Positions 29,920 through 64,000 of a DNA stretch of 64,000 nt are shown here, piece after piece. The DNA is taken from the NCBI GenBank assembly GCA_027923505.1, contig BROI01000008.1:682001-746000 (forward strand). Direction: 5' to 3'. A program made the translations under genes and the position numbers. Under the pieces are notes generated by a model. It made no database searches, was not told where the DNA came from, and saw nothing but the letters and a program-made list of their open reading frames with translations. The stretch comes from Mayamaea pseudoterrestris. Lineage: Eukaryota. How positions within the stretch are numbered: position 1 is the stretch's first letter; each line of letters begins with the position of its first letter.

Positions 29920-31575
29920 ATGGCGTCTCCTCCGACCTATTCACCGATTTTAATTGAGCTAGGACTCGCCACCACGACTCATAACGACCTTTACAAACGA
30001 CTAAATGCGGTAGACATCCTGCAACGACTTTTAGAAACGAACATTCTGACAGAGGATGTCCTTCGATCGGCGCATGATGCTTTGGCCAATTCTCTTCAGC
30101 AGGCACAGCAATTCACGACGAAACAGAAAGAAGAGAAGAGGTCTGAGACTACCCGTAAGAAGGAGTTGAAGATAGATTTGAGCAACTTACGGACAAGGCA
30201 TGTTGCCTTGCGTATTTACTACGATGGCGGAGCCTACTCTGGTCTTGCAGAAAACGTTGGTCAAGCGTCGGACCAATCGGTGGAAAGGGCTTTGTTTCAA
30301 GCACTCCAAAAGGCTCAATTCATTGAATCGCGTGAAACTTGCGGATACTCTAGGTGCGGAAGGACTGATCGGGGAGTGAGCGCGGCTGGACAAGTGGTAG
30401 CGCTTCGAGTCAAGTCCGCTTTTGGAATGGATGCCTCGTTCGACTCAAACGGTGAGAATCTTATCCAAGACGCGGATCTACCAAGCAACGCGCACGATAT
30501 GATCCAAGTTCATGTGCCGGCTCGGAAAAAGAATAGCAATGAACATGCTGACGGTCAACCTACGGTTCGAACGCAGCGATTGCTATCAGAGTATCCATAC
30601 GACCGAGTGCTTAACAATTTGCTACCCAAGGATGTCCGTGTCGTAGGTTGGTGCCCAGTATCTGATGAATTTTCGGCTCGCTTCTCTGCCGCAACGCGAA
30701 CATATCGGTATTTCTTCTACAAGCGGCACATGAATTTGGGGTTAATGGATCAAGCCTTGCAGTTGCTCGTTGGAAATCACGACTTTCGCAACTTCTGCAA
30801 AATGGACGTGGAGAAGGTTTACAACTTTGAACGTGTCATTTATAGCGCGAGCATTGTAGAGCAGGAGACTGGAGTATGCTACATGATGATTCATGGCCAA
30901 GCCTTCTTGTGGCACCAAATTCGTTGCATTGCCGAGATTCTATTCTTGGTGGGACGAGAGAAGGAGTCGCCCAGCATCGTATTGGACTTGTTAAACATCA
31001 ACAAGCATCCCAGAAAACCAAGCTATCCGTTGGCTGATGAGCGGCCCCTGGTACTTCATGATTGTGGCTACAAGAAGCTACAAATACAGTACTCTGTACA
31101 AAACTTGTGGGCAGTCACGTGCCTGCAGGAAAAGCAGTGGGAGGACTTGATGTTGACGGCCGCAAGAATTCGCAATAGTCTCAATAGCTTGAAAGATAAT
31201 GCAAGTGTTTTAGGCGGCGATTTAGAGGCTTTTGCCGGCCGCGTCGCTGATGCCCGTAAGAAGCGCAAGTCGATTACGCCGACTAACGGACAAGTATTTC
31301 CCTTCAAAGGAACTCAGCATGTCGCGTGGAGCGATGCGCTCCAGTGGATTCATGATAGTCTCGGTATATGGCCTGGGCCAAACAATGAAAAAGAGTTGGC
31401 ATATGCACCACTTATGAGTCGATCCAAGGGAACGACCTACGAAGAAAAGGTGGAGGCTGCTATGAAATCCGCTAGACGAAACGAGCGTTATGTAATGAAT
31501 GTTGTCAAAAAGCGTAAGTCGAAAGAAGAAGACATTGCATTCTACAAACATATGGCTAATCAAGGAAATTTTTAA
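29920..31575 (+). CDS. PUS3: tRNA pseudouridine(38/39) synthase, TruA family
   Basis: RHVALRIYYDG, YSRCGRTDRGVSAAGQV, FSARFSAATRTYRYFF, HDFRNFCK and AFLWHQIRC. The start may instead be 29887. Confidence 0.9.
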   Translation: MASPPTYSPILIELGLATTTHNDLYKRLNAVDILQRLLETNILTEDVLRSAHDALANSLQQAQQFTTKQKEEKRSETTRKKELKIDLSNLRTRHVALRIYYDGGAYSGLAENVGQASDQSVERALFQALQKAQFIESRETCGYSRCGRTDRGVSAAGQVVALRVKSAFGMDASFDSNGENLIQDADLPSNAHDMIQVHVPARKKNSNEHADGQPTVRTQRLLSEYPYDRVLNNLLPKDVRVVGWCPVSDEFSARFSAATRTYRYFFYKRHMNLGLMDQALQLLVGNHDFRNFCKMDVEKVYNFERVIYSASIVEQETGVCYMMIHGQAFLWHQIRCIAEILFLVGREKESPSIVLDLLNINKHPRKPSYPLADERPLVLHDCGYKKLQIQYSVQNLWAVTCLQEKQWEDLMLTAARIRNSLNSLKDNASVLGGDLEAFAGRVADARKKRKSITPTNGQVFPFKGTQHVAWSDALQWIHDSLGIWPGPNNEKELAYAPLMSRSKGTTYEEKVEAAMKSARRNERYVMNVVKKRKSKEEDIAFYKHMANQGNF

Positions 31576-31621
31576 CCGTGTGAACTACCTTGCAATTACA
31601 ACTAATACTCTAAACTCGTAA

Positions 31622-33296
31622 TCACTGGGATGGTCGATAATCCGCTGGCATTTCACCGCAGTCCGAAATAACGACATCCACCTCCGGCTTGTCCGAGGCT
31701 CCGACCTTCGTATTCTCAATTTTGCGGATCACATCCATGCCTTCCACCACATGGCCAAACACGACATGCTTGTTATCCAGATGCTGCAGATGAAAAAGAA
31801 TAACGAAATTGATGTCAGATCTGACATCACAGTGTTTGTAAGCAAATTCGCGTGGCATAAACTTACCGGCGTAGCCTTGGCAGTCACAAAAAACTGACTA
31901 CCATTTGTTCCTTTGCCAGCGTTGGCCATTGATAGCTGGCCTTCCTTCGTGTGTTTGATCTTGAAGTTCTCGTCTTCGAATTTCTCGCCTGTATTGCATT
32001 GTGAGATTTTAAAAAGGACGATAAGAAACGCGACACGTAAATTTGTGAAGGTAGCAGAAAACCCCATTTTCACTCACCATAAATACTAGCGCCGCCAGTG
32101 CCGTCTCCATTTGTAAAGTCTCCGCCTTGAATCATGAAGTCCTTAATCACACGATGAAAGATGCTGCCTTTGTAGTGCAATGGCTTGCCAGATTGACCAA
32201 TACCCTTCTCCCCAGTGCACAACGCTCTAAAATTTTCTGCCGTCTTGGGCACAATATCCTTGTATAGCTGCATGACCACACGTCCAAGGTTCTCGTCGCC
32301 CTGCTTGATATCAAAATAGACATGGGGATTGTCGCCCTTGGCATTAGGCAGGAAGAGACCTTCCTTGTCGTCGTACATGCTAACTTTGCCAAAAATGCCA
32401 CCAAATGCTTGCTTCTCCTTCTGCTTGGCCAGCGCGTGTGCGTCCTTCAGCTGTTTCATTGCCTTGAGCACATCCTTGTTGCCATTGTCAAGGTTGTAAG
32501 CTGCCATTAGATCTTCCTTTGCCTCCTTGAGCAATCCAAGGTGCAACTTGGCCAGACCCCGTCTGTACAAGGCCTTAATGTTCGAGGTCCTTTCCGACGC
32601 AAGTCCAAGAACCTTGTCGCAGGCTCGTTTCGCTGCCGCCCAATCCTTCGTCTTGATGTAGCACATGGCAGCGTTGGACCAGCAACTCACGTAAAACTGT
32701 CGCTCCTCGTCCGGAATTTCGTCTCCAGAAACATCATCATCATCGACAATGTAGTCGGCCGCATTCTCGTACTTCTGCGACGCTTCCGCATAACTTTGGC
32801 TTTGAAAAAGTTCCGTTCCTTCCGTCTTGAGTTTCTTGGCGACGTCGCTTCGCTCATCCAAAGTCATTTCCCACTTCTCCTTTTGTTTTTCATAGAAATC
32901 CAACAGTTCCACTTCGAAATGAAGGACCGCATGGGGAGGAATTTTTGGAGGGCTACCAGATGGGCCGTAGCCATAATCTGGTTGGATCTCGAGGATCGCT
33001 CTCTCGCCCACCTTCATCGAAGCGAACCCTTCATCCCATCCCCGAATGACTTGGCCATGACCAATGGAGAACTCAAAGGGTTTGCCGCGATCCAAACTTG
33101 AATCAAACTTGCTTCCATCGCTGGCCAACGTTCCAGTGTAGTGAGCCTTGATTTGAACTCCGTCAGGTGGCGGACCCTTGGCGTCGGAAGGTGCTTCTTT
33201 GATAATCTTCTTGCGAACGCCGCCATCTTGCGCAATGGAAACGTCAACCCACTCAGTGTCGGGCATGGTTTCAGTGGTGGAAGGTTCGTCAGTCAT
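31622..33296 (-). CDS. FCBP: Dual immunophilin FKBP-TPR-cyclophilin; introns 31989-32077 and 31784-31866
   Basis: FKBP motifs ([22 protein letters not shown]), TPRs (KALYRRG) and cyclophilin motifs ([45 protein letters not shown]). Confidence 0.93.
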
Positions 33297-33531
33297 AATG
33301 CGCGCAAGTGAATAGGAGTAGTAGCTTTTGTGAAATTGTGAGATGATGTTGTGTCGTCCATCATGGTTGGGATGATCGAGGTTCCACGTGTCGTCTGTTT
33401 TGCTCGAAACGGTTCATGGTGCGACATTAATCTCATCTCACAACCATGCATCACTTCGTTCGTCTCGACATGCATCACTTCATCGTCTCGCCTCGATTAT
33501 TTGAAAGCAACCAAGTATTTTCGTCGGAATC

Positions 33532-34483
33532 ATGAGATATCTTCCACTCTACAATTTATGCTATTTGCTATTTATCCTGGGCTGTCATATCGAGACAAAC
33601 CATGCGTTTGTCATTCAGCAACCAACGACCACTTCAATCTCAATCATTTCGAAGCCACAATGTCGTCTACATGCATCTGGTCCATTGTACGCCGGTGGTT
33701 TTGAATGGAACGATCCAACTGAAGCCTTCGACCAAGGTGTGGAAAATCCTTACAAAAATCCTGCGCTAATGCAGGGAGAGGAAGGCATCAAAATCGATCC
33801 AGCAAGATTGCTTTCGCCACGATTGGCGGGCGTCAATTTGTACTTTGTCGGAATGATGGGCAGTGGGAAGAGTCGAATCGGAGACAAGGTTGCAAGACGT
33901 GAGTGAACTGACAGGTATGCATGAGGTATTGTAAGTTGTTTTTGCCTTAACCGATGTTCCATTCGTCAACGCAGGGATGGGGACATACAATTTTCTAGAT
34001 ACTGATCAAATCATTGAAAAGGCATCCGGCATGACGATACCCCAAATATTCGCAGCGGAAGGTGAGGAGGGATTTCGAAAATTAGAGTCACAAGTCTTGG
34101 ACTCGGTGCACCCTTACGTGCGATGCGTGATTTCGACCGGCGGTGGAATCGTTTGCCAGCGAGAGAACTGGAGCAAACTTCACACTGGCTTGACAGTTTG
34201 GCTAGATGTCTTACCCGAGATCATCATTAAGCGTATTGAAAACTCTGATAGACCACTTCTGCAAATTGACAATCCACTGGAGACATTACGACGACTATTA
34301 GATGAGCGACAGGAATCATACGGCCAAGCGGATGTGCGAGTCAGTATCTTGGAGGATTTGGATGAGGACGAAGTGACAGACTTGGTGATTCGGCACCTTC
34401 ATGACTTTATTGACGAGAATCCTCCGGCCTGGAAAGTTGCCAAGGCCAAGGCTCAGGCAGAAGGTCTCGACTGGGTAAAGTAG
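33532..34483 (+). CDS. aroK: Shikimate kinase, probably plastid-targeted; intron 33899-33974
   Basis: P-loop GMMGSGKS, IFAAEGEEGFR, VISTGGG and RPLL. Signal peptide ends HA-FV. Confidence 0.92.
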
Positions 34484-34525
34484 TTGGTGCAAAGACTCTA
34501 ATAGGAATTTAACAGCTCTACGCCT

Positions 34526-34978
34526 CTACCCAGCAGTCCACGTCATGAGAGGCTTTGAGTTAGGGCCTACCAATGGTGTATCTTTGGAAGGTTTCTTCTT
34601 CTTTGGCGGATAAGCGCCTTGCTTTTTTAATCTTAGCTCGGCAGCTGCCGCTCGTTCTGCACGTTGTTGCTCTTGTTCCTCCATTGTCAGATTCAGATCG
34701 CCCTTGTGTATTGGCGCAGGTTCTAGTGATGCGGACACTTCGTTCTTCCTTGCATTTGAAACATCGGCATCGTGGTATCGCTCGCTTTTCGCTCCTAGAC
34801 GTTGACCCTGATGGAGAATCGAAAGTGCACAACGCATGCATGAGAAGATTTCGTTGTTGCCAAGACGAACCAAGCGTCAATTTGACCACCACCTACTTTG
34901 AAGCACTATACGTACCTCCCCCTTGAAGGCATTCTGGTCGACGGCAAGAGAATCGTCACAACCGCAACAGTTCCCCAT
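34526..34978 (-). CDS. Small acylated protein, SVIP-like; exons 34978-34916, 34807-34526
   Basis: The spliced protein starts MGNCCGC (myristoyl/palmitoyl motif), contains RAERAAAAELR (VIM-like) and ends LMTWTAG. Confidence 0.6.
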
Positions 34979-35245
34979 CGTCGAATTTCTGTGTGCAAAA
35001 CAGTTTCGTCACACTTTGAATCCTACCGGTACTCATCTCTTGTTTGGCAGAACAAGCGCCGCGCCATCACCATGGAAAACATGGAATGAAGGAACTTTAA
35101 GCAGCAGATCGCACCGATTGTCGCTCATCGATTCGGGCAAGTATCAAACCCTGTTGGAAGCTCTTCTCATTATAGGTGAAATCGGTGGAATAGCTGCTAA
35201 TCGATTGCCTGGGGCGACTACCGTAGCTCGAAGGAAAGTTAGAGT

Positions 35246-36865
35246 ATGGAAACCACAGCTGCCAGCCGATCGTCCAGGATTAGAAGGCATCCATACCAGG
35301 CAGTGAGCCCTGCACCTTCATCGGAAGCTTACTTCGATGAGACCTCTGATGAAGTTCATGAAAGTCAAGACGACACACGCGTCCACATCGACCCAAATGA
35401 CACAGCAGAACATGCAGCAATAACAATCGATGAGGCCATTGAACGACTCACCATGGGTCGCTTCCAGTACACAATACTATGCGCAAGTGGCCTTTGCTTT
35501 GCCGCCGACGCCATGCAGGTTATACTTTTGAGTTTTGTTTCGCTCGTCATGCAGCGAGAGTGGAATCTGGACAATCATCAGACAGCCCTGCTGACGTCCA
35601 TGCTCTTTGCAGGGGCCATGGTTGGCACTCTCTGTCTGGGACCATTGGCAGATCGAATTGGTCGCCGACCCGTGTTTCTGATTGCTGCATCCATCATTTG
35701 TTTCTTTGGAATGCTTCTGGCGGCGTGTGCAAGTTACTTGTCTGCTCTCTGCACCATTCTTGGAATTGGCTTTGGTGTCGGTGGCTTGACGATCCCCTTT
35801 GATACACTCGCCGAATTTTTGCCGGCAAAGGGTCGTGGCACCAATCTGCTACTCATTGAATACTTTTGGACTGTGGGATGCCTCTATGTTGTTGCTGCGG
35901 CGTATTGCACATTACAAGGAGCAGATGCGCAATGGCAAAAGTTGGTGCTTCTTTGCAATCTGCCATGCGTCGCAGCCCTCATCATTGGATACGTGTGCGT
36001 GCCTGAGAGTCCAAGGTGGCTGGTCTCTCGAGGCAGATGCGATGAAGCGCTGCACGTGCTGCGAAAGGTGGCAAAAATAAATGGACTTGATGCCCAAACT
36101 GTCTTTCCCCAAGGCCTTGAACTTGCGCAGGAGGAACATGGGCCGGAAGCGACAATCGCTGATCTTTTGCAACCAGAATGGAGGGCGATAACATTGTGTT
36201 TGTGGGGCACCTGGTGTGGATTTGCATTTGGTTACTACGGTGCCATCTTGACAATTACCAAGGTGTTCAAATCCAGTGATAGTTCACCATCGACAACAAG
36301 TCCCTATTCATTTGACTACTCGGCCATTTTTGTAAGTAGCTCGGCCGAAATTCTCGGGACAACTCTTGCTATTCTTGCCATTGATCGGCTCGGGCGTATT
36401 CCGTCTCAGGTCGCCTCTTACGTGGCAGCTGGCATCTCAATTTGTCTTCTGGGTATACTGTCCGAGGAGCACGCTTCTCGCAATATCTTGGTCGCACTTG
36501 GCTTCTTAACACGAGTATTTGAAATGTGTGGAACATGCTCCACATGGGTTGGGACGGCTGAGATCCTCACGACCGAAGTTCGCACCACTGGACATAGTGC
36601 CGCCAACGCCGTTGCTCGGATCGGTGCCTTTGTATCTCCGTTTGTGATTGCCGACAACAGCCCGCGGAACATTGGACTCGTCATGTTGCTCGTGCATTTG
36701 TTCACGGCAGCATGCGTCTCCAAGCTCCCCGAAACGAAAGGCAAATCATTAGGTGCTTCTAATCCAAGCGTCGAGGATGGAAATGACGTTTTGCTGGATC
36801 AAAACAATGCCGACATTTTTCACGCTGATGAGTGCACTATCGAGGGCACGTCAGCTTTAACGTAA
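35246..36865 (+). CDS. MFS transporter, SVOP/SV2-like
   Basis: GRFQY...FAADAM, ADRIGRR, PESPRWL, DRLGR and LPETKG, with multiple TM helices. Confidence 0.9.
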   Translation: METTAASRSSRIRRHPYQAVSPAPSSEAYFDETSDEVHESQDDTRVHIDPNDTAEHAAITIDEAIERLTMGRFQYTILCASGLCFAADAMQVILLSFVSLVMQREWNLDNHQTALLTSMLFAGAMVGTLCLGPLADRIGRRPVFLIAASIICFFGMLLAACASYLSALCTILGIGFGVGGLTIPFDTLAEFLPAKGRGTNLLLIEYFWTVGCLYVVAAAYCTLQGADAQWQKLVLLCNLPCVAALIIGYVCVPESPRWLVSRGRCDEALHVLRKVAKINGLDAQTVFPQGLELAQEEHGPEATIADLLQPEWRAITLCLWGTWCGFAFGYYGAILTITKVFKSSDSSPSTTSPYSFDYSAIFVSSSAEILGTTLAILAIDRLGRIPSQVASYVAAGISICLLGILSEEHASRNILVALGFLTRVFEMCGTCSTWVGTAEILTTEVRTTGHSAANAVARIGAFVSPFVIADNSPRNIGLVMLLVHLFTAACVSKLPETKGKSLGASNPSVEDGNDVLLDQNNADIFHADECTIEGTSALT

Positions 36866-37239
36866 CATTTTGGGACAAAATAAATCAACCGATACATTCT
36901 TTTGCTTTAACATCAAGCATTACCCGGCTTGGTTTTGCTCAGTAACTTAATTATGAGCACTATGATGAGCTTGGCTTGACAGACTGTTTCCGCTTGGTTG
37001 CTACCCTAGGAATTTTCACAAGGGACTCACATTTGACACATTGGGTTCGGTGGTTCAGCTCTGTGCTTTCTTTTCATGATGGCAGTCATTCACAGTCACT
37101 ACCGATACAGCATGGGCCATGGGCAATGGTCGCAAGTTGTGGCTCCGGTTTGACAACACTAATCGCTTGACTCTCTGTCTCCTTCATGTTTAATATAATC
37201 TACATTGCCTTGACCATCACTGGAACGTTTCCTCTTCGA

Positions 37240-37806
37240 ATGTCAACGTTTCTTCTTTGTCTCGCAGCGCTTCAAATGATGCATTTCAGCTCGCGCGCAT
37301 CCGCATTCATCCTGCGTCCTTCCTACAAGGCTCAGAAGTTATCATCGCAGAGATACCGAAGCTTGCCGTTATCCTCGGGGAATGCTTTAGTATCATCATC
37401 TGGCTACTCCGACGCGGAGGTCGGCGAGATGGAGTCACTGATTCTGAACCTGTCCAACCTGCCGACTGACGAATCAAGGCGGACGAAAGTCGCTCAGATA
37501 TTCAACGAGACCTTTTCTGCTTCTGCAGATGGTTTAAACAAGTCCAAACGGTTCTGTGAATTATTTGATATAATCTTGATTCGTGTTGGGGATCAGGTGC
37601 GAAGGGAAGCGGCAGAGCCGATGGGCGTTGCTGCGAGCGACTCGGATGCCACTGCCTCTGAAGTAGCTGCTATTAACCCAAAAGTTGAGCGCACCAAGAC
37701 CAAGGAGGAACTTCAATTATGGGCGCTAGTTGACATGATGGTGCAATCTAAAACGCTCGTCAAGCGGGCGACTGGAGAACTCGGCAAGGATGGTGCTTTT
37801 GGATAG
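37240..37806 (+). CDS. Hypothetical protein with a bipartite plastid-targeting presequence
   Basis: Signal peptide ending ASA-F followed by an S/R-rich transit region. No domain recognised. Confidence 0.65.
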   Translation: MSTFLLCLAALQMMHFSSRASAFILRPSYKAQKLSSQRYRSLPLSSGNALVSSSGYSDAEVGEMESLILNLSNLPTDESRRTKVAQIFNETFSASADGLNKSKRFCELFDIILIRVGDQVRREAAEPMGVAASDSDATASEVAAINPKVERTKTKEELQLWALVDMMVQSKTLVKRATGELGKDGAFG

Positions 37807-38096
37807 AGTAAAGCTTGTAAAATTTGCTTCTAGACACTTCATTTATTTAAATCTTACTCATTGTTTAAATGCTTATACCTACCAGTAGTTCCGTAAGCCT
37901 TCTTACACGCTGTCCTGGAGAAACTAACTTTGGCATTCGTACGATAGCTAGCGTTAACTTTAACTCCATTGTGTGTGCGAGAAAAACGGTTGAACGGTCA
38001 TGCAGCATGGTGCCCATGTTCCCGATGTTCAAGGTGACGAGCGAGCGGCACGGTGAGAAGATTCTATAGTAGCAACAAGGAACGATCAATTGCGCC

Positions 38097-39944
38097 ATGA
38101 ACAGCAATCCCTTTGGTGTTCCACCGCCAGCCCCTGTTCATACGGGTGTTACGTCTCCATCGTCAGCCATGGTGAATCCGTTTGATCCACTCGCTCCGCC
38201 TTTAGCCGATCCGTTTGGACAAGCGCCACCGATGCAGCCGACTCCCACGAGTGCCAGTGGTGGCGGAGCCAATCCATTTGCGTCTCCAGTTTCGACGGTG
38301 ACAGCATCGGCTTCCTATGCATCTCCATTTCAGCCAGCGGCGTCTGCTCCGACTCCTCCAGTTCAGCAGCTGCAGCAGCAGCAGCAACCGTCACCAGCCT
38401 CCTACGACACGGCACTGGTTCCTTCGCAATATCAGTCCAATCCTTACGGAGGAATGGTAATGTTGGGTGGCCAATCGGCTCCTCCGGCGCAAAGTCAAGC
38501 AACCAACAATTACCAGTGGGGATTGGATGCGGGCGCGGCTCCGTCTGCGTACGGACAGCAAGGAGGGTCATTTTCCAATGAGCAGCAGGCATTTGATTAC
38601 TCGGCGCAGGCTCCATCGCCGACAAATTATCAACAGCATCAGCAGTTGCAACCGACATTGACGGAGTCGCAGCGTCCGCCGAGTCCACCGAAGCAACATG
38701 ACCCATCGTCGCCATCAACGGCCATGACAAACTACCAGAAACCGAAATCAGTCGACGTTCCCATTGAATCCAAAGAAATTCGCCCAACTGCCTATGAGTA
38801 CGGTCAGCGCGAAGTACCTTCGGACGAACACCGTCGCGAGGATGAATTTAAAAACTATGTCAATCCCTACAGGGGCGACTTGGCGCGCGAAGCACCCATG
38901 GGGTCGAGTCCCTTGCCCAAGCCAGACTTGGTTCGCAAAAAGGGTTACGTCTTGTCGAGAATCTCATTTAGAACCATTGTTATGAAGAAGTGGAAGCAGT
39001 CGTTTTGGGTTCAGTAAGTAGATTGCGTTACTTTTAATGTCATATTACGGCATTCAACTAACCTGCATTCACTAACGTTGACGTCAGGTACGGTCCTCAT
39101 ACGATGCTTTGGTTCCGCAACGAATCCGACTTTTCCGACTGGCTAAACAATCCCTACCACGACCAGGCAACTCGCAATTTTTTAATCAAACTTGCAGTCA
39201 ACTTTGTCCACGACTTGTACAAGCCAAATGTTCGGGGATATCAAGTGACGCAATGTCGCACCAAGGCGTATGGAAACAAGATGGTGCGTCAGTTCAAATT
39301 GGAGCGATGGATGGATTATGGGCCGACAATTGCGGCGGCATTTGGTTCATATGACCCAAAGGAAGTGGACGAGCTGAGATCTGCCATTGTCGAGTGCATG
39401 CGCAACACTCCGCTCAATTCTGGCATTCGGGCGACGGGAGCAGTTCGTCAGAACCGACCGGATGGTGAAGAGGAAGCAAGTCATGATAGACATGATGATG
39501 ACCGTCGCGGTTACGCCAGTAATTCAGGTGATGGTGAGCGCTTGTCGTCGCAGGAGAATTTGAAATCGGCTCCATCCGCGGAAGAGTCGGTCGAGGCGGT
39601 GGAAGAGGATTTGATGGATGTTAACAATTGGGATGACGTTCCTACTGGTACGCAACATCCGTCGATGGGATATGGCCAGCAGCAACAACAGCCGCCAGTG
39701 AACGCTGCCTATGGTGTGCCTCTTCCTACATATCCGTATGCGCAACCTCCACCACCGCCGCCTCACCAGTACGCGCAACAACAATCACCACCGCAGCAGC
39801 ATCAGAGTGTTTACCAGCAACAAGGCGCCATGGTTCCATTTGCTGGTGCACCTAGTCCCTATCCCGGTGCGCCTCCGCCGCCGCAGCAACAACAATACGT
39901 CGCAGACCCCTGGGCAGGCCAGGCCCAACCGTATCCAGCGCAGC

Positions 39945-39975
<31 letters not shown>

Positions 39976-54483: not shown

Positions 54484-54525
54484 TTGGTGCAAAGACTCTA
54501 ATAGGAATTTAACAGCTCTACGCCT

Positions 54526-54978: not shown

Positions 54979-55245
54979 CGTCGAATTTCTGTGTGCAAAA
55001 CAGTTTCGTCACACTTTGAATCCTACCGGTACTCATCTCTTGTTTGGCAGAACAAGCGCCGCGCCATCACCATGGAAAACATGGAATGAAGGAACTTTAA
55101 GCAGCAGATCGCACCGATTGTCGCTCATCGATTCGGGCAAGTATCAAACCCTGTTGGAAGCTCTTCTCATTATAGGTGAAATCGGTGGAATAGCTGCTAA
55201 TCGATTGCCTGGGGCGACTACCGTAGCTCGAAGGAAAGTTAGAGT

Positions 55246-56865
55246 ATGGAAACCACAGCTGCCAGCCGATCGTCCAGGATTAGAAGGCATCCATACCAGG
55301 CAGTGAGCCCTGCACCTTCATCGGAAGCTTACTTCGATGAGACCTCTGATGAAGTTCATGAAAGTCAAGACGACACTCGCGTCCACATCGACCCAAATGA
55401 CACAGCAGAACATGCAGCAATAACAATCGATGAGGCCATTGAACGACTCACCATGGGTCGCTTCCAGTACACAATACTATGCGCAAGTGGCCTTTGCTTT
55501 GCCGCCGACGCCATGCAGGTTATACTTTTGAGTTTTGTTTCGCTCGTCATGCAGCGAGAGTGGAATCTGGACAATCATCAGACAGCCCTGCTGACGTCCA
55601 TGCTCTTTGCAGGGGCCATGGTTGGCACTCTCTGTCTGGGACCATTGGCAGATCGAATTGGTCGCCGACCCGTGTTTCTGATTGCTGCATCCATCATTTG
55701 TTTCTTTGGAATGCTTCTGGCGGCGTGTGCAAGTTACTTGTCTGCTCTCTGCACCATTCTTGGAATTGGCTTTGGTGTCGGTGGCTTGACGATCCCCTTT
55801 GATACACTCGCCGAATTTTTGCCGGCAAAGGGTCGTGGCACCAATCTGCTACTCATTGAATACTTTTGGACTGTGGGATGCCTCTATGTTGTTGCTGCGG
55901 CGTATTGCACATTACAAGGAGCAGATGCGCAATGGCAAAAGTTGGTGCTTCTTTGCAATCTGCCATGCGTCGCAGCCCTCATCATTGGATACGTGTGCGT
56001 GCCTGAGAGTCCAAGGTGGCTGGTCTCTCGAGGCAGATGCGATGAAGCGCTGCACGTGCTGCGAAAGGTGGCAAAAATAAATGGACTTGATGCCCAAACT
56101 GTCTTTCCCCAAGGCCTTGAACTTGCGCAGGAGGAACATGGGCCGGAAGCGACAATCGCTGATCTTTTGCAACCAGAATGGAGGGCGATAACATTGTGTT
56201 TGTGGGGCACCTGGTGTGGATTTGCATTTGGTTACTACGGTGCCATCTTGACAATTACCAAGGTGTTCAAATCCAGTGATAGTTCACCATCGACAACAAG
56301 TCCCTATTCATTTGACTACTCGGCCATTTTTGTAAGTAGCTCGGCCGAAATTCTCGGGACAACTCTTGCTATTCTTGCCATTGATCGGCTCGGGCGTATT
56401 CCGTCTCAGGTCGCCTCTTACGTGGCAGCTGGCATCTCAATTTGTCTTCTGGGTATACTGTCCGAGGAGCACGCTTCTCGCAATATCTTGGTCGCACTTG
56501 GCTTCTTAACACGAGTATTTGAAATGTGTGGAACATGCTCCACATGGGTTGGGACGGCTGAGATCCTCACGACCGAAGTTCGCACCACTGGACATAGTGC
56601 CGCCAACGCCGTTGCTCGGATCGGTGCCTTTGTATCTCCGTTTGTGATTGCCGACAACAGCCCGCGGAACATTGGACTCGTCATGTTGCTCGTGCATTTG
56701 TTCACGGCAGCATGCGTCTCCAAGCTCCCCGAAACGAAAGGCAAATCATTAGGTGCTTCTAATCCAAGCGTCGAGGATGGAAATGACGTTTTGCTGGATC
56801 AAAACAATGCCGACATTTTTCACGCTGATGAGTGCACTATCGAGGGCACGTCAGCTTTAACGTAA
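55246..56865 (+). CDS. SVOP-like MFS transporter, duplicate copy
   Basis: Same protein as 35246-36865, with a synonymous ACA>ACT change at 55377. Confidence 0.88.
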   Translation: METTAASRSSRIRRHPYQAVSPAPSSEAYFDETSDEVHESQDDTRVHIDPNDTAEHAAITIDEAIERLTMGRFQYTILCASGLCFAADAMQVILLSFVSLVMQREWNLDNHQTALLTSMLFAGAMVGTLCLGPLADRIGRRPVFLIAASIICFFGMLLAACASYLSALCTILGIGFGVGGLTIPFDTLAEFLPAKGRGTNLLLIEYFWTVGCLYVVAAAYCTLQGADAQWQKLVLLCNLPCVAALIIGYVCVPESPRWLVSRGRCDEALHVLRKVAKINGLDAQTVFPQGLELAQEEHGPEATIADLLQPEWRAITLCLWGTWCGFAFGYYGAILTITKVFKSSDSSPSTTSPYSFDYSAIFVSSSAEILGTTLAILAIDRLGRIPSQVASYVAAGISICLLGILSEEHASRNILVALGFLTRVFEMCGTCSTWVGTAEILTTEVRTTGHSAANAVARIGAFVSPFVIADNSPRNIGLVMLLVHLFTAACVSKLPETKGKSLGASNPSVEDGNDVLLDQNNADIFHADECTIEGTSALT

Positions 56866-57239
56866 CATTTTGGGACAAAATAAATCAACCGATACATTCT
56901 TTTGCTTTAACATCAAGCATTACCCGGCTTGGTTTTGCTCAGTAACTTAATTATGAGCACTATGATGAGCTTGGCTTGACAGACTGTTTCCGCTTGGTTG
57001 CTACCCTAGGAATTTTCACAAGGGACTCACATTTGACACATTGGGTTCGGTGGTTCAGCTCTGTGCTTTCTTTTCATGATGGCAGTCATTCACAGTCACT
57101 ACCGATACAGCATGGGCCATGGGCAATGGTCGCAAGTTGTGGCTCCGGTTTGACAACACTAATCGCTTGACTCTCTGTCTCCTTCATGTTTAATATAATC
57201 TACATTGCCTTGACCATCACTGGAACGTTTCCTCTTCGA

Positions 57240-57806
57240 ATGTCAACGTTTCTTCTTTGTCTCGCAGCGCTTCAAATGATGCATTTCAGCTCGCGCGCAT
57301 CCGCATTCATCCTGCGTCCTTCCTACAAGGCTCAGAAGTTATCATCGCAGAGATACCGAAGCTTGCCGTTATCCTCGGGGAATGCTTTAGTATCATCATC
57401 TGGCTACTCCGACGCGGAGGTCGGCGAGATGGAGTCACTGATTCTGAACCTGTCCAACCTGCCGACTGACGAATCAAGGCGGACGAAAGTCGCTCAGATA
57501 TTCAACGAGACCTTTTCTGCTTCTGCAGATGGTTTAAACAAGTCCAAACGGTTCTGTGAATTATTTGATATAATCTTGATTCGTGTTGGGGATCAGGTGC
57601 GAAGGGAAGCGGCAGAGCCGATGGGCGTTGCTGCGAGCGACTCGGATGCCACTGCCTCTGAAGTAGCTGCTATTAACCCAAAAGTTGAGCGCACCAAGAC
57701 CAAGGAGGAACTTCAATTATGGGCGCTAGTTGACATGATGGTGCAATCTAAAACGCTCGTCAAGCGGGCGACTGGAGAACTCGGCAAGGATGGTGCTTTT
57801 GGATAG
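57240..57806 (+). CDS. Hypothetical plastid-targeted protein, duplicate copy
   Basis: Copy of 37240-37806. Confidence 0.62.
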   Translation: MSTFLLCLAALQMMHFSSRASAFILRPSYKAQKLSSQRYRSLPLSSGNALVSSSGYSDAEVGEMESLILNLSNLPTDESRRTKVAQIFNETFSASADGLNKSKRFCELFDIILIRVGDQVRREAAEPMGVAASDSDATASEVAAINPKVERTKTKEELQLWALVDMMVQSKTLVKRATGELGKDGAFG

Positions 57807-58096
57807 AGTAAAGCTTGTAAAATTTGCTTCTAGACACTTCATTTATTTAAATCTTACTCATTGTTTAAATGCTTATACCTACCAGTAGTTCCGTAAGCCT
57901 TCTTACACGCTGTCCTGGAGAAACTAACTTTGGCATTCGTACGATAGCTAGCGTTAACTTTAACTCCATTGTGTGTGCGAGAAAAACGGTTGAACGGTCA
58001 TGCAGCATGGTGCCCATGTTCCCGATGTTCAAGGTGACGAGCGAGCGGCACGGTGAGAAGATTCTATAGTAGCAACAAGGAACGATCAATTGCGCC

Positions 58097-59944
58097 ATGA
58101 ACAGCAATCCCTTTGGTGTTCCACCGCCAGCCCCTGTTCATACGGGTGTTACGTCTCCATCGTCAGCCATGGTGAATCCGTTTGATCCACTCGCTCCGCC
58201 TTTAGCCGATCCGTTTGGACAAGCGCCACCGATGCAGCCGACTCCCACGAGTGCCAGTGGTGGCGGAGCCAATCCATTTGCGTCTCCAGTTTCGACGGTG
58301 ACAGCATCGGCTTCCTATGCATCTCCATTTCAGCCAGCGGCGTCTGCTCCGACTCCTCCAGTTCAGCAGCTGCAGCAGCAGCAGCAACCGTCACCAGCCT
58401 CCTACGACACGGCACTGGTTCCTTCGCAATATCAGTCCAATCCTTACGGAGGAATGGTAATGTTGGGTGGCCAATCGGCTCCTCCGGCGCAAAGTCAAGC
58501 AACCAACAATTACCAGTGGGGATTGGATGCGGGCGCGGCTCCGTCTGCGTACGGACAGCAAGGAGGGTCATTTTCCAATGAGCAGCAGGCATTTGATTAC
58601 TCGGCGCAGGCTCCATCGCCGACAAATTATCAACAGCATCAGCAGTTGCAACCGACATTGACGGAGTCGCAGCGTCCGCCGAGTCCACCGAAGCAACATG
58701 ACCCATCGTCGCCATCAACGGCCATGACAAACTACCAGAAACCGAAATCAGTCGACGTTCCCATTGAATCCAAAGAAATTCGCCCAACTGCCTATGAGTA
58801 CGGTCAGCGCGAAGTACCTTCGGACGAACACCGTCGCGAGGATGAATTTAAAAACTATGTCAATCCCTACAGGGGCGACTTGGCGCGCGAAGCACCCATG
58901 GGGTCGAGTCCCTTGCCCAAGCCAGACTTGGTTCGCAAAAAGGGTTACGTCTTGTCGAGAATCTCATTTAGAACCATTGTTATGAAGAAGTGGAAGCAGT
59001 CGTTTTGGGTTCAGTAAGTAGATTGCGTTACTTTTAATGTCATATTACGGCATTCAACTAACCTGCATTCACTAACGTTGACGTCAGGTACGGTCCTCAT
59101 ACGATGCTTTGGTTCCGCAACGAATCCGACTTTTCCGACTGGCTAAACAATCCCTACCACGACCAGGCAACTCGCAATTTTTTAATCAAACTTGCAGTCA
59201 ACTTTGTCCACGACTTGTACAAGCCAAATGTTCGGGGATATCAAGTGACGCAATGTCGCACCAAGGCGTATGGAAACAAGATGGTGCGTCAGTTCAAATT
59301 GGAGCGATGGATGGATTATGGGCCGACAATTGCGGCGGCATTTGGTTCATATGACCCAAAGGAAGTGGACGAGCTGAGATCTGCCATTGTCGAGTGCATG
59401 CGCAACACTCCGCTCAATTCTGGCATTCGGGCGACGGGAGCAGTTCGTCAGAACCGACCGGATGGTGAAGAGGAAGCAAGTCATGATAGACATGATGATG
59501 ACCGTCGCGGTTACGCCAGTAATTCAGGTGATGGTGAGCGCTTGTCGTCGCAGGAGAATTTGAAATCGGCTCCATCCGCGGAAGAGTCGGTCGAGGCGGT
59601 GGAAGAGGATTTGATGGATGTTAACAATTGGGATGACGTTCCTACTGGTACGCAACATCCGTCGATGGGATATGGCCAGCAGCAACAACAGCCGCCAGTG
59701 AACGCTGCCTATGGTGTGCCTCTTCCTACATATCCGTATGCGCAACCTCCACCACCGCCGCCTCACCAGTACGCGCAACAACAATCACCACCGCAGCAGC
59801 ATCAGAGTGTTTACCAGCAACAAGGCGCCATGGTTCCATTTGCTGGTGCACCTAGTCCCTATCCCGGTGCGCCTCCGCCGCCGCAGCAACAACAATACGT
59901 CGCAGACCCCTGGGCAGGCCAGGCCCAACCGTATCCAGCGCAGC

Positions 59945-59975
<31 letters not shown>

Positions 59976-60024
59976 GCAGAGTTATGGTCCGCCGCCTCCG
60001 CAGTACAATAGGCCGGCGTACTAG
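58097..60024 (+). CDS. Pro/Gln-rich PH-like protein, duplicate copy
   Basis: Copy of 38097-40024. Confidence 0.68.
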
Positions 60025-60072
60025 TCAGTGGTGTATACGTGTAGAAAGTGTTTCTTGACTCGTGTGTACTTT

Positions 60073-61170
60073 TTATTTATGCCTTCTCTTATGATGCAAC
60101 GTTACATGCAAGTCTCGAATCGACTGTATGACTTCTCTTGTCACTGGTACCAATTTCGCTTCAGCTGTAGCAGCGCATGCGGTCGGCATGTCCGCGGGCT
60201 GAAGAGAAAACACATATGTGCATGCGTCATGAACGGGAAAGCTCCTGCGATCCAACGCCTTTCGTGGTATGTATGGGTGTAGAAGGCAACGATCAAGTAC
60301 AATGCGGCCTACATGATGGTATACATTGCCGTTGGCGTCCTCTAGCTCACGAGCCACATCTTCAATCCGCCATTGATTGAAAGGAGGCTATGTAAATATA
60401 CAAAGAAAACTGTCAGTGACAAGCAGGTTGCAACAAATGCAGGCCGAAGCTGCAGCACACGGCATGGTTCTTACCTTTGTCTTGTGGTTCATGTGGATTT
60501 GACAGCGAGGCGATGCAAAGCTAGCAGCACTTTTTAGAAACCTCCTGACAAGGTCCTTATTCAACTCCATTTCCTTGTTTTGACCATCTTGCCCTTTGCA
60601 AATTGCCGAGCACGGGAAATTCCAGATAATTCTATCAAACTTGACATTGCTATCGCTAGAAAGAGGTAGGGTGCTGGCAAGATTTGTCGCGTCAACTTGA
60701 AAGAAGATGGAAACTCCAAGACTCTCAAGTTCTTTCAGCGTCTTCTCAATGTGAGGATACACGGTCTCCACTGTTCTGCGACTTTCGTAACTGGTAGCCG
60801 TGAGCGTCACGCCAAGTCGAGCCAGCGCCAAGCTAAAGGAAAAGTCGCCGTCGCCAACCGTGAGTACCTTCAAACCAGGTCCGTATCCGAGAATTTCTGT
60901 ATAGGCGTCATAAGAGTTTCTATTCGATCTTGGACAAAGTTCCGGTCGTTGGTTGGGTACGATTCGGCAAAACTCCTCGTCCAAGGCAACGTCAAAGCAG
61001 CAAATCTTGTAAGCGCATGGAACGCATCGTTGCGACGAGGCACAATTCAACGTTCGATCCGACACCCATAGATTGCGGCAGTCTCGCGTCGGAAAACTTG
61101 CATTTTTGTTAGACGATGCCTTGTGCTCCAACCTAGCTCGCTTTGCTGTGCAATGCTGATGATCTGACAT
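60073..61170 (-). CDS. BMT5-like methyltransferase, duplicate copy
   Basis: Copy of 40073-41170. Confidence 0.83.
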
Positions 61171-61415
61171 GAGTATAATGCAACTCGTTTGGGTATTTAT
61201 GGTTGAGAACAAAGTCATGTCATGGTACAAGTTACAAGTAAGCGGTGGAGGGACGAGCACGCATCCCTATCGTACCGGTTTTAAAAATGTGTCGCTGTGC
61301 GACATCTTGCATGCACCGCGCCCGCGTCCAGCAGCCCGTGGCATGACCATTATCTCAGAAAACCACCATTTGCCTCCACGATTAATCGAATTAGATGTAA
61401 AAAAGCCTTGGACCC

Positions 61416-62885
61416 ATGCAGCACGAGATTCCATCGCAAGAATTTGCGCAATTGAAGAAAGATTCGATGTCTGAAGACGTGGAAGCGACAGGTACTAATG
61501 AAGATTTGCCAGTGAGCAGTAACGTCGACGAGCCACCACAAAAGAACGTCGCCAATGATAGAACAGAAAATGGTCGTCCTCCAGCGGAGTTTAAAATCGG
61601 TGAGGTGGTTTACGCGGCTGATGAAAACGATTTGATTTACGAGGCGACGATTCGTCGCAAACTCTACGGAGTCAACTACCAGAAAAAAGTGGTTGCCGGC
61701 ATGGTAACATCAGTCGAGGAAGCTAACGCGCTTCTGGCTCAACAAGAACTTCCGGTATGGCATTACTTTGTGCATTACCATGGCTGGAGCGTCAAATGGG
61801 ATCGGTGGACTTCAGCTTCTAAAATTTTTGTTCATTCAGATGCGTCCAAGGCGCTTGCTAAACGGCTGCAGGAGGAATATCGCAAGGTTAGGGATGAGCT
61901 TTCTGGTTTAGCCAAAGGAAAGAGACCACGAAAAGTGACTGCAGAGGAACTTTTGCCAGTGTGGAAGTCATCGATGTTAAAGATATACAGGGCCTTTGAG
62001 CTGCGCCAAAATCAGACGGAAGAGGAGCAAGCGGAAGCAGCGAACGATGGCATTGCCATACCCAATGTAGTTACTGCGCCACACATAGAGCTTCCCGTTT
62101 TCACCAACAATACCAATCAGTGTAAAGGAGAAGATATCCGCGATGCTGCGCTGCATACTGAACTGGCATTTCGGAAGAAAGGCCTCACGAGCTTGCACAT
62201 TTACGGCGCCTTCATACCTCTTCCAGTTACGCTTAAGCGAATTCTTGTCGACGCATGGGAAAATATCACCCAGTGCAGCTCAGTTCCAATTCTTCCAGCG
62301 AAAGTTAGCGTCAAAGATGCTCTAAACCTTTACATACAACGCAAGGGAGTTGAGCTCGAGTGCGCCACAGTTGATGCTGAGCTAAATGACGCGAACGCGT
62401 CCGCTTCCGCTGCTAGCCTTCACGATATAAATGCGAACAAGCAGCAATGGATTGACATGATAGATGGCATTTGCCAGTATTTTGACGAGACACTTCCTTG
62501 TCACCTCTTGTATGCGGAGGAATTGGCCCAACTTCACACCATGTGCGCGGACGATGAAACAAACATCGAATCCTATTCGGAAATTTACGGGTGTGAACAT
62601 TTACTTCGACTGTTGACGAGGTTGCCGGCGCTACTCCTCGACAATGCCGCCGAGCAGGAGCTGCGTCCGATCCTTGCCAAGGTGAATGACTTTGTTCGCT
62701 TCATGCACAAGAGTGATTCGCTGTGGGCGTTGAGCTACCGACCATTAAATGACGCGGAGCTTGGTGAGAAGATAAAGTTGGAAAAGATGAAAGATACAAA
62801 AAGAAAGCGCGATACCAAGTCTGATGCTATGGGAGATTTTTCTTCTGAAATGGGAGGCAAGCGACAGATGACTGTGCCGGATTAG
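61416..62885 (+). CDS. EAF3: MRG15/Eaf3 protein, duplicate copy
   Basis: Copy of 41416-42885. Confidence 0.83.
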   Translation: MQHEIPSQEFAQLKKDSMSEDVEATGTNEDLPVSSNVDEPPQKNVANDRTENGRPPAEFKIGEVVYAADENDLIYEATIRRKLYGVNYQKKVVAGMVTSVEEANALLAQQELPVWHYFVHYHGWSVKWDRWTSASKIFVHSDASKALAKRLQEEYRKVRDELSGLAKGKRPRKVTAEELLPVWKSSMLKIYRAFELRQNQTEEEQAEAANDGIAIPNVVTAPHIELPVFTNNTNQCKGEDIRDAALHTELAFRKKGLTSLHIYGAFIPLPVTLKRILVDAWENITQCSSVPILPAKVSVKDALNLYIQRKGVELECATVDAELNDANASASAASLHDINANKQQWIDMIDGICQYFDETLPCHLLYAEELAQLHTMCADDETNIESYSEIYGCEHLLRLLTRLPALLLDNAAEQELRPILAKVNDFVRFMHKSDSLWALSYRPLNDAELGEKIKLEKMKDTKRKRDTKSDAMGDFSSEMGGKRQMTVPD

Positions 62886-63204
62886 ACACACCTCCTGTTT
62901 GATCTGTGCTTCCACTAATCTGGTATCAGGTCGGTGCCATATAAAAGTGTAGTCTATTACAATCTTCTGCTGGTATGTACAGAGTTTGAATTATTTACCG
63001 CACATAACTTACATCGTCTATGTACTGGGACGATGGGAAAAGGTGTGTCGCGGCAGGTCGTTCTTATCCCGTTGTGACACTTTCGGCATCTTCCTCGACG
63101 AAGACGCTCTTCATTTTCACGAAGTAACTTCATTACACGCTGTTTTTAATCCGATTGCTGTAAGGAACTAACTGTTGAATTGGGGTGAACTTTAAAAGGG
63201 AATC

Positions 63205-63963
63205 ATGGCATATGAAAAACGATGGAACGCTCATTCGTTGATCGCCAGCCAGATCTTTCTGTCAGGCATTTTCGCGCTGCTTCGGTTATGTCACACAGCC
63301 GCACATGGACCAGTTCCCATTGACCTAGGAACAACTTTGATTGCACTCAAATACAAAGATGGTGTCGTTGTCGCCGCTGACACTCGAACTTCCATGTCAA
63401 GCTACGTGAGTCACCGATCGGCCGACAAGATTGTTCCAGTCTCCTCGCATTGTCTTGTTGCTCGGTCAGGCAGTGCGGCTGACACACAGATGTTGGCGCA
63501 CGTTACAACGCAACATATTCTAGAACGCTTTTATAAACATGGAATGGTTTCTACAGTTTCGCAAAGTGCAAGGCTGATGGAAAATCTGGTGGGGTCGTCC
63601 TCGAACGAGTTGGGTGTGAGTTTACTAATCGCTGGCTACGACAAGGAGAGCTGTGCTAGTAAAATTTACAGCTTAGCAGCCAGTGGAGCGCTGTTGGAAG
63701 AAGGAACTTTTGCTATTGCAGGCTCTGGGTCGTCTTTTATCTCGGGATACATGGATACGCATGCCGTCGGAGGCTCAGAAATCTTGGACGAAGCGGCAGC
63801 GATTCGAGTATGTCAACACGCGATGCAGCTGGCCATGACGCGAGATGCTTCCTCGGGAGGCTTTATTCGCATCTTCGTATGTAATGATAAGGGATGTCGG
63901 CAGGAAACCAATCGTCCCGCGTCATTGCAAGTTGATGCAGGTGCAGATCGCAGAGTTTCATGA
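63205..63963 (+). CDS. PSMB6: Proteasome beta-1-type subunit, duplicate copy
   Basis: Copy of 43205-43963. Confidence 0.83.
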   Translation: MAYEKRWNAHSLIASQIFLSGIFALLRLCHTAAHGPVPIDLGTTLIALKYKDGVVVAADTRTSMSSYVSHRSADKIVPVSSHCLVARSGSAADTQMLAHVTTQHILERFYKHGMVSTVSQSARLMENLVGSSSNELGVSLLIAGYDKESCASKIYSLAASGALLEEGTFAIAGSGSSFISGYMDTHAVGGSEILDEAAAIRVCQHAMQLAMTRDASSGGFIRIFVCNDKGCRQETNRPASLQVDAGADRRVS

Positions 63964-64000
63964 CGGCTGGATTAGTTTTGATCAAGCACAAAAGAATAGC

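What the first reader, a model, noticed from the sequence alone, without database searches (positions are those of the whole stretch)
29959..64000. Near-identical head-to-tail tandem duplication with an exactly 20,000-bp period
Seen: 49959-64000 repeats 29959-44000 with no net indel, including introns, intergenic DNA and a (CAA)10 tract. It duplicates nine intact genes (FCBP, shikimate kinase, SVIP-like, SVOP-like, a plastid hypothetical, PH-like, BMT5-like, MRG15 and proteasome beta). Unit 1 is 29959-49958 and unit 2 leaves the window. Inference: this is either a very young segmental duplication/CNV or an assembly or in-silico artefact. The round period and the lack of repeats or a TE at the breakpoint make an artefact at least as likely as biology.
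Basis: partly seen in the sequence, partly recalled or inferred. Interest (0 to 1): 0.85.

Follow-up and report, generated by a model that had tools for sequence, protein, structure and literature searches.

The report
False 20-kb duplication from genome assembly
The repeat is truly in the window, but sequencing reads of the same organism never join the end of the block to its start, so the second copy is an assembly error and not a gene duplication.

Summary
Window 29959-44000 and 49959-64000 agree at 14,041 of 14,042 positions at an offset of exactly 20,000, with a sharp left edge.

The biology does not hold. I laid read-derived contigs of 4 public runs (3 samples, 2 studies) on 42000-58000.
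- In 4 of 4 runs no contig bridges 49958/49959.
- In 4 of 4 runs the contig arriving from the left runs on past 49959 into sequence that is absent from the window.
- In 4 of 4 runs the contig entering 49959 from the left carries the 30 letters that precede 29959.
- In run X4 both boundaries are crossed by long unbranched contigs (12,714 and 6,699 letters). A tandem junction at allele-like frequency would prevent this.
- In run X1 a contig lying almost wholly in the true right flank has depth 161.7, against 147-184 inside the unit, so depth is not doubled.
- The junction depth bin leaves no room for an unlisted junction contig in X1 or X4.

The single difference between the copies sits in a patch that is polymorphic in the reads. 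This points to a false duplication made inside the assembly pipeline by a late step that works on coordinates. I did not identify which step. The genes in the unit are ordinary single-copy diatom-type genes. Interest is low.

The parts
29959..49958 (.). Unit 1, the genuine sequence. It is single-copy according to the read contigs.
   Evidence: Searches give the extent. In one search contigs of runs X1 and X4 match 42000-49816 and 42000-49959 with 0 other letters, then continue past 49959 into sequence that is not in the window.
49959..64000 (.). False second copy (the head of 'unit 2', which leaves the window). It equals 29959-44000 except at 55377.
   Evidence: 14,041 of 14,042 positions identical; every contig that enters 49959 from the left carries the 30 letters of window 29929-29958 (4 of 4 runs).
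49958..49959 (.). Artefactual junction between the end of the unit and the start of the unit.
   Evidence: no listed contig bridges it with 31 letters on both sides (0 of 4 runs), and no joint is listed there. Loose ends occur on both sides in 4 of 4 runs; the listed pieces fully account for the depth bin over the junction in X1 and X4.
29958..29959 (.). True continuity between the left flank and the unit. It is not a copy-number boundary.
   Evidence: record 3 (X1) and record 10 (X4), each 6,699 letters, run unbranched from 3,139 letters left of the boundary to 3,560 letters inside the unit.
35377..35377 (+). The only difference between the copies (A here, T at 55377). It is synonymous: ACA against ACT, Thr, codon 44 of the MFS ORF.
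   Evidence: In one search the only contig laid at 55377 reads A in each of 4 runs, at lower depth (59.7 against 147-167 in X1). That contig also reads A at 55330, where both window copies have T.
29920..31575 (+). tRNA pseudouridine synthase ORF. It crosses the left breakpoint if it starts at 29887 or 29920.
   Evidence: PF01416, E 5e-29; positions of in-frame ATGs; an X6 RNA-type contig extends 43 letters left of the boundary.
32070..33296 (-).
   Evidence: PF00254 at 1.9e-32 and PF00160 at 2.5e-18. X6 skips two introns here, 83 and 89 nt long, with CT..AC ends on the + strand.
33977..34483 (+). Shikimate kinase, last exon.
   Evidence: PF01202 at 3.5e-36. X6 skips 76 nt (GT..AG) at 53898-53975 in copy 2.
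35246..36865 (+).
   Evidence: PF00083 at 1.2e-39.
40388..41260 (-). BMT5-like rRNA methyltransferase.
   Evidence: PF10354 at 5.1e-33.
41416..42885 (+). MRG/chromodomain protein.
   Evidence: PF05712 at 3.8e-28.
43205..43963 (+). Proteasome subunit.
   Evidence: PF00227 at 9.1e-37.
44003..49757 (-). Large orphan gene made of two ORFs joined by a 76-nt intron. Transcribed sequence continues to the right, past 49958.
   Evidence: no Pfam family passes its cutoff. X6 record 26 skips 48979-49054 and runs 798 letters beyond 49959.

Best explanation
The second copy is not in the organism's DNA at any appreciable frequency. It is a false duplication created while the genome sequence was built. The real locus is flank, then one 20-kb stretch, then a different right flank. 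The sequence in the window goes back to base 29959 after base 49958 and prints the same stretch again.

Shown: the reads of the same strain lack the junction, cross both 'boundaries' without branching, and show no doubled depth.

Inferred: the copy was made by a step that works on coordinates (a chunk, offset or block-merging step), because the period is exactly 20,000. It was made late, when the consensus was already free of indel errors, because the period has not drifted. It was made before or between separate consensus or polishing passes, because the copies differ at one read-polymorphic site.

It comes before a last short-read polish, and its published method can place one block twice. 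I did not find a 20-kb parameter in that tool.
For: All contig evidence below comes, where contigs of 4 runs (X1; X4 and X5 from one sample; X6) were laid on 42000-58000.
1. 0 of 4 runs have a listed contig bridging 49958/49959, and no joint is listed there.
2. In 4 of 4 runs a contig ending at 49959 continues with a 30-letter consensus (beginning AAGTTCC) that has 0 matches in the window at up to 2 mismatches.
3. In 4 of 4 runs a contig starting at 49959 is preceded by the 30 letters that stand at window 29929-29958 (compare).
4. X4 record 9 (12,714 letters) runs from 2,051 letters before 42000 to 2,703 letters past 49959 without a break. X4 record 10 and X1 record 3 (6,699 letters each) run from 3,139 letters left of 29959 into the unit.
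5. Heterozygous variants at roughly a third of the depth do break these same contigs and are kept as separate contigs. Examples in X1 are 55330/55377 at depth 59.7 and 57618-57676 at 43.4 of 133.5. A junction at allele-like frequency should therefore have been visible.
6. Depth in X1: record 2 has 1,695 of its 1,868 letters in the true right flank and depth 161.7. Contigs inside the unit have 147.3-183.7. There is no 2:1 step.
7. The printed depth of the bin 49476-50009 equals what the listed pieces give: X1 185.7 computed against 185.8 printed, X4 47.1 against 47.1. A 60-letter junction contig at half depth would add about 10 in X1 or 2.7 in X4.
8. The runs are the same strain as the window: 0 other letters over 7,817 letters (X1 record 1) and 7,960 letters (X4 record 9).
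9. The period is exactly 20,000 with no indel, and there is no repeat, TE or microhomology at the breakpoints.
10. The only mismatch lies at a site where the laid contig of all 4 runs carries the copy-1 letter at lower depth.
11. Nanopore reads with N50 8.6 kb were assembled twice. Each assembly was polished, the two were merged with MAC 2.0, and the result was polished again with short reads. The assembly is 30.6 Mb against a k-mer estimate of 27.2 Mb.
12. Passages of PMC7005248 give a worked example in which the merged adjacency holds one block twice.
Against: - All four runs are kept as contigs, not raw reads. Contigs show presence better than absence and drop rare variants, so a junction carried by a small minority of molecules is not excluded.
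- Contig depths are means over whole contigs, and the tool warns that they are no copy number.
- Table 8 lists only the longest pieces (58 more are not shown). For X5 and X6 I therefore rely on the loose-end and joint tables alone.
- The T of copy 2 at 55377 is not seen in any laid contig. That site is a polymorphic or uncertain patch rather than a clean two-allele site.
- I did not see the far end of unit 2 (expected near 69958, outside the window), the whole contig, or any intermediate assembly.
- No tool or paper I read contains a 20-kb parameter (0 occurrences of '20 kb' or '20000' in PMC7005248), so the step that made the copy is unidentified.
Confidence: 0.9

Rival explanations
1. A copy was made in silico after the assembly was finished. 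Examples are overlapping stored chunks joined without trimming, or a copy planted when the record or window was prepared.
For: The period is exactly 20,000, the edge is sharp and unrelated to any sequence feature, and there are no indels. Like the assembly-stage reading, this one predicts that the junction is absent from reads, as one search shows.
Against: A pure copy would be identical. The copies differ at one site, and that site lies in a read-polymorphic patch where the laid contig of 4 of 4 runs carries the copy-1 letter. X1 shows 10 variable places in the 16,001 bases laid. By my arithmetic, a random change hitting one of them with the matching letter has a chance of roughly 2 in 10,000. 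Earlier notes of this scan hold no other round-period duplication, but that is a weak negative.
Confidence: 0.07
2. It is a real, very young tandem duplication, fixed or heterozygous in the strain.
For: The structure is head-to-tail, identity is near perfect, and the ORFs inside are open. Long-read assemblers can resolve such repeats when reads span them.
Against: In one search, 0 of 4 runs show the junction. Unbranched contigs of 12,714 and 6,699 letters cross both supposed copy-number boundaries, although heterozygous variants at about a third of the depth do break these contigs. Flank depth is 161.7 against 147-184 in the unit. The junction depth bin has no room for a junction contig. The round period would have to be coincidence. 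If the paper's data apply, a read N50 of 8.6 kb could rarely span a 20-kb unit.
Confidence: 0.01
3. It is a real duplication carried by only a small fraction of cells or chromosomes of the culture. The fraction is below what read contigs retain, but one long-read assembler followed it.
For: Contigs drop rare variants (tool text), so absence from contigs does not exclude a rare form.
Against: A period of exactly 20,000 bases would be coincidence. An assembler would need several reads across a rare junction at 52x total coverage (if that paper applies). X5 has contigs with many 1-2-base gaps, which I infer come from a noisy long-read library, and it shows the same two loose ends at 49959 and no junction.
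Confidence: 0.02

Closest known systems
False duplications in genome assemblies, homotype kind (Ko et al. 2022, Genome Biol 23:205, PMC9516828; abstract and passages read)
   Same: A stretch is present twice in the assembly but once in the genome. It is recognised because the reads support neither extra depth nor the join. The result is false gene gains, here about ten ORFs. There are no haplotype-specific differences between the copies, which that paper calls homotype.
   Different: That paper attributes homotype cases to read errors (under-collapsed sequence) and lists gaps between duplicates on one scaffold as a hallmark. Here there is no gap, the copies abut directly, and the period is a round 20,000. 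This points to a coordinate or block-merging error rather than under-collapse.
Haplotig (heterotype) false duplication in diploid assemblies (same paper; Purge Haplotigs, as used in PMC9724779)
   Same: It occurs in diploid, heterozygous organisms such as diatoms and inflates assembly size over the k-mer estimate (30.6 against 27.2 Mb in PMC9724779, if that assembly is the source).
   Different: The two copies would then differ at the heterozygous sites. Several variable places in 49959-58000 are seen in the X1 contigs (for example 54900, 55330, 55377 and five places in 57618-57676), yet the copies differ at only one. So copy 2 is not the other haplotype.
Biological tandem segmental duplication or copy-number variant
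   Same: The arrangement is head-to-tail and the copies are near identical.
   Different: The junction is absent from the reads and depth is not doubled. There is no microhomology or repeat at the breakpoints.

Membership tests
False duplication in an assembly (criteria as in PMC9516828, passages) | Reads do not support the join between the two copies (discordant or absent spanning reads). | tested here: met
   0 of 4 runs have a contig across 49958/49959. In 4 of 4 runs contigs diverge there on both sides, into the true right flank and into the copy-1 left flank; no unlisted contig fits in the junction depth bin for X1 or X4.
False duplication in an assembly (criteria as in PMC9516828, passages) | Read depth of the duplicated stretch is not raised relative to single-copy flanks. 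Equivalently, depth is halved when reads are mapped to both copies. | tested here: met
   X1: a contig with 1,695 of 1,868 letters in the true right flank has depth 161.7, and in-unit contigs have 147.3-183.7. The caveat is that these are contig mean word depths, not mapped raw reads.
False duplication in an assembly (criteria as in PMC9516828, passages) | [quoted passage not shown] | tested here: not met
   the window holds only A, C, G and T; the copies abut directly. The paper lists this as a frequent hallmark, not a requirement.
Heterotype (haplotig) false duplication | The copies carry haplotype-specific differences at heterozygous sites. | tested here: not met
   1 difference in 14,042 positions; several variable places are seen in read contigs within 49959-58000, and the copies differ at only one of them.
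Biological tandem duplication / CNV | A novel junction sequence is present in the organism's reads. | tested here: not met
   (0 of 4 runs).
Biological tandem duplication / CNV | There is a copy-number step at the boundaries (graph branch and doubled depth). | tested here: not met
   unbranched contigs of 12,714 letters (X4 record 9) and 6,699 letters (X4 record 10, X1 record 3) cross the boundaries. There is no 2:1 depth step.
Biological tandem duplication / CNV | A breakpoint signature is present (microhomology, flanking repeats or a mobile element). | tested here: not met
   no homology left of the edge; no repeat family at either breakpoint; no shared 40-mers other than at offset 20,000.

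The most novel reading that the evidence does not exclude
The junction is real but rare. A 20-kb tandem duplication arose in a minority of cells of the clonal culture, at a frequency too low to survive in read contigs, and one long-read assembler followed it. That would be a snapshot of a segmental duplication of about ten genes at birth in a diatom, and its exactly 20,000-base period would be coincidence.
Probability: 0.02. Interest if true: 0.3.

Novelty: not a real feature. Interest (0 to 1): 0.05.

Why it matters
The finding matters only for data quality. About ten ORFs in 49959-64000 and beyond would be counted as brand-new paralogues: pseudouridine synthase, the FKBP-cyclophilin immunophilin, shikimate kinase, an MFS transporter, BMT5-like, MRG, a proteasome subunit and several orphans. 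The assembly also carries 20 kb too much at this place. A round-number, gap-free false duplication is not the usual haplotig kind and is not removed by haplotig purging. The same pipeline step may therefore have left other copies elsewhere in this assembly. Anyone using the assembly for gene-family or copy-number work should screen for them.

Tried and rejected
- Whole-genome look-up of the junction failed because no genome is held for this window. I could not see the far end of unit 2, the junction's coordinate in the contig, or other round-period copies.
- I searched the window for the start of the true right flank given by the loose ends and found 0 matches at up to 2 mismatches. It lies outside the window.
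- Earlier notes of this scan hold no look-alike stretch in other genomes and no other round-period duplication.
- I looked for a 20-kb parameter in the description of the assembly-merging tool. '20 kb' and '20000' occur 0 times in PMC7005248.
- A literature search for 'MAC2.0' listed 10 papers, none of which holds the term. The causal step therefore stays unidentified.
- The haplotig reading is rejected: the copies differ at 1 site and not at the heterozygous sites.
- Depth comparison across the left boundary was not possible in the same call. The 20,000-base limit of read laying cannot hold both the left flank and the junction.
Full report
1. THE OBSERVATION

The repeat is in the sequence exactly as described. 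At an offset of 20,000, window 29959-44000 equals 49959-64000 at 14,041 of 14,042 positions, without any indel. Everywhere to the left of 29959 the identity at the same offset is 22-28% per 1,000-base bin, which is chance level.

The left edge is sharp. 29958 and 49958 differ, and the 58 bases before them show only scattered matches. Offset 20,000 is the only offset at which the window shares 40-mers with itself (13,963 of them), and there are no inverted 40-mer matches. No other repeat family touches either breakpoint. The CAA tract (10.7 units) is present in both copies. The one difference, 35377 A against 55377 T, is a synonymous third-position change (ACA/ACT, Thr) in an MFS transporter ORF.

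2. WHAT THE UNIT HOLDS

Pfam finds the following in the repeated part:
- a tRNA pseudouridine synthase ORF (29548/29920-31575, +)
- an FKBP + TPR + cyclophilin protein (32070-33296, -)
- shikimate kinase (33977-34483, +)
- an MFS/sugar transporter (35246-36865, +)
- a BMT5-like methyltransferase (40388-41260, -)
- an MRG/chromodomain protein (41416-42885, +)
- a proteasome subunit (43205-43963, +)

Three ORFs (37186-37806, 38097-39017, 39104-40024) have no Pfam match even at E up to 1. The tail of unit 1 (44003-49757, -) is a large orphan gene. The left flank holds a nucleotide-sugar transporter ORF whose ATG is at 29921 on the minus strand.

Its in-frame ATGs at 29887 and 29920 lie left of the breakpoint, and the next is at 30427. 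That gene may therefore lack its start in copy 2.

3. THE TEST THAT DECIDES

No whole genome is held for the window. I therefore looked for public sequencing runs that hold the 2 kb around the junction. I then laid the read-derived contigs of four of them on 42000-58000. The four were X1, X4 and X5 (one sample), and X6, which together make 3 samples and 2 studies.

The runs are the same strain as the window. X1 record 1 matches 7,817 letters and X4 record 9 matches 7,960 letters, each with 0 other letters. X6 is RNA-like, because its contigs skip 76-89-nt stretches with GT..AG or CT..AC ends. X5's contigs carry many 1-2-base gaps, which I take to mean a noisy long-read library (inference).

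Result at the junction:
- In 0 of 4 runs does a listed contig bridge 49958/49959, and no joint is listed there.
- In 4 of 4 runs a contig coming from the left runs on behind 49959 into a sequence (30-letter consensus beginning AAGTTCC) that does not occur in the window (0 matches at up to 2 mismatches).
- In 4 of 4 runs a contig that starts at 49959 is preceded by the 30 letters that stand at window 29929-29958, the left flank of copy 1.

So the reads know only two paths: left flank into the start of the unit, and end of the unit into a different right flank.

4. WHY THIS IS MORE THAN 'NOT SEEN'

Three points go beyond simple absence.

First, the contigs do not even break at the two supposed copy-number boundaries. 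X4 record 9 (12,714 letters) runs from 2,051 letters before 42000 to 2,703 letters beyond 49959. X4 record 10 and X1 record 3 (6,699 letters each) run from 3,139 letters left of 29959 to 3,560 letters inside the unit. In a word graph a tandem junction makes a branch at both places. That such branches would be kept is shown by the heterozygous variants of this very stretch. In X1, alternative contigs at 59.7 (55330/55377) and 43.4 of 133.5 (57618-57676) are kept and break the main contigs.

Second, depth is not doubled. X1 record 2 has 1,695 of its 1,868 letters in the true right flank and depth 161.7. Contigs inside the unit have 147.3-183.7.

Third, the printed depth of the bin 49476-50009 equals what the listed pieces alone give: X1 185.7 computed against 185.8 printed, and X4 47.1 against 47.1. 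A 60-letter junction contig at half depth would add about 10 in X1 or 2.7 in X4.

Caveats:
- These are contigs, not raw reads.
- Their depths are means over whole contigs, and the tool itself warns against reading them as copy number.
- For X5 and X6 only the loose-end and joint tables speak, because 58 pieces are not shown.
- A junction in a small minority of molecules cannot be excluded.

5. WHAT KIND OF ARTEFACT

The copies are not the two haplotypes. Read contigs show several variable places within 49959-58000, for example 54900, 55330, 55377 and five places in 57618-57676. The copies differ at only one site.

They are also not a plain copy-paste of finished sequence. The single difference lies in a patch that is polymorphic in the reads. 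At 55377 the only laid contig of each of the 4 runs reads A, the copy-1 letter, at lower depth. That contig also reads A at 55330, where both window copies have T. The T of copy 2 at 55377 is not seen in any laid contig. The simplest reading is that the two copies went through consensus calling separately (inference).

The period is still exactly 20,000. So no net indel correction touched unit 1 after the copy was made, which places the event late, on sequence already polished. It also points to an operation on coordinates or blocks rather than a mis-overlap of noisy reads (inference).

6. A POSSIBLE SOURCE STEP (LEAD, NOT SHOWN)

I did not check this.

Passages of the paper on that species' assembly (PMC9724779) describe the pipeline:
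- Nanopore reads (N50 8.6 kb, 52x) were assembled separately with two assemblers.
- Each assembly was polished.
- The two were merged with MAC 2.0.
- The merged assembly was polished again with short reads.
- Haplotigs were then purged.
The assembly is 30.6 Mb against a k-mer estimate of 27.2 Mb.

The merging step sits exactly where the reasoning above puts the event. The method paper (PMC7005248, passages) shows a worked example in which the final adjacency contains one block twice. Reads of that length could rarely confirm or refute a 20-kb repeat.

However, I found no 20-kb parameter ('20 kb' and '20000' occur 0 times in that paper). A search for 'MAC2.0' gave nothing useful. I did not verify that the window is from that assembly. 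The step therefore remains unidentified.

7. COMPARISON WITH WHAT IS KNOWN

This is a false duplication in the sense of Ko et al. 2022 (PMC9516828; abstract and passages). Their criteria of unsupported joins and no extra read depth are met here. Their frequent hallmark of a gap between the copies is not met. By their classes it is homotype-like, with no haplotype-specific differences.

The round period and direct abutment differ from their under-collapse mechanism. As a biological tandem duplication it fails every defining test that I could run: junction in reads, copy-number step, and breakpoint signature.

8. VERDICT

The duplication is not a real feature of the organism (confidence about 0.9).
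- An in-silico copy made after assembly remains possible (about 0.07).
- A rare subclonal duplication is possible (about 0.02).
- A fixed or heterozygous one is very unlikely (about 0.01).

Interest is low. The practical value is a warning that about ten ORFs here are false paralogues, and that the same pipeline step may have left other copies in this assembly.

Noticed in passing
window 13895-14070: A 42-nt tandem repeat of 4.2 copies (83% matches). Its unit holds TGACGTAATTGACA, and it lies about 100 nt upstream of the ORF 14177-15412 (+). The TGACGT core resembles bZIP/CRE-type binding sites (recalled), so this may be a promoter-proximal array.
   Followed up: no
window 32070-33296 (-) and its false copy 52070-53296: One ORF joins an FKBP domain, TPR repeats and the start of a cyclophilin domain. 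RNA-type contigs splice two short introns downstream of it. This is a dual-family immunophilin of the kind described in apicomplexans (recalled).
   Followed up: partly
window 44003-49757 (-): A large orphan gene made of a 1,686-aa ORF plus a 280-aa ORF, joined by a 76-nt intron in RNA-type contigs (48979-49054). No Pfam family passes its cutoff. There is only a weak F-box hint at the N-terminal part (E 0.041, 14.3 bits, below the cutoff of 20.5). Transcribed sequence continues 798 letters to the right of 49959 in the real genome.
   Followed up: partly
window 29919-29922: A CCATGG palindrome supplies an ATG to both divergent ORFs: the nucleotide-sugar transporter on the minus strand (ATG at 29921) and the pseudouridine synthase on the plus strand (ATG at 29920). 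At most one of the two is likely to be the true start at this spot.
   Followed up: no
window 50536 (= 30536): Contigs of X5 and X6 carry one extra CAA behind this place, while X1 and X4 do not. This is a trinucleotide length variant inside the pseudouridine synthase ORF.
   Followed up: no
window 55001-55388 and 57618-57676: These are patches of clustered heterozygosity in the read contigs. The first is marked by contig breaks, with contigs at roughly a third to half of the neighbouring depth. The second has five variants within 59 nt, on a contig at about a third of the depth, in X1, X4 and X5.
   Followed up: no
window 25832-27472 and 27535-28470 (+): Glutamate-cysteine ligase (PF03074) is split over two ORFs that match profile positions 1-174 and 175-372. 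This implies a short intron between them.
   Followed up: no
window 49787 (run X1): A 19-letter loose end before this place in one X1 contig looks like a library adapter tail (identity recalled, not tested). It explains why X1's contig breaks at 49787-49816 while X4's does not.
   Followed up: no
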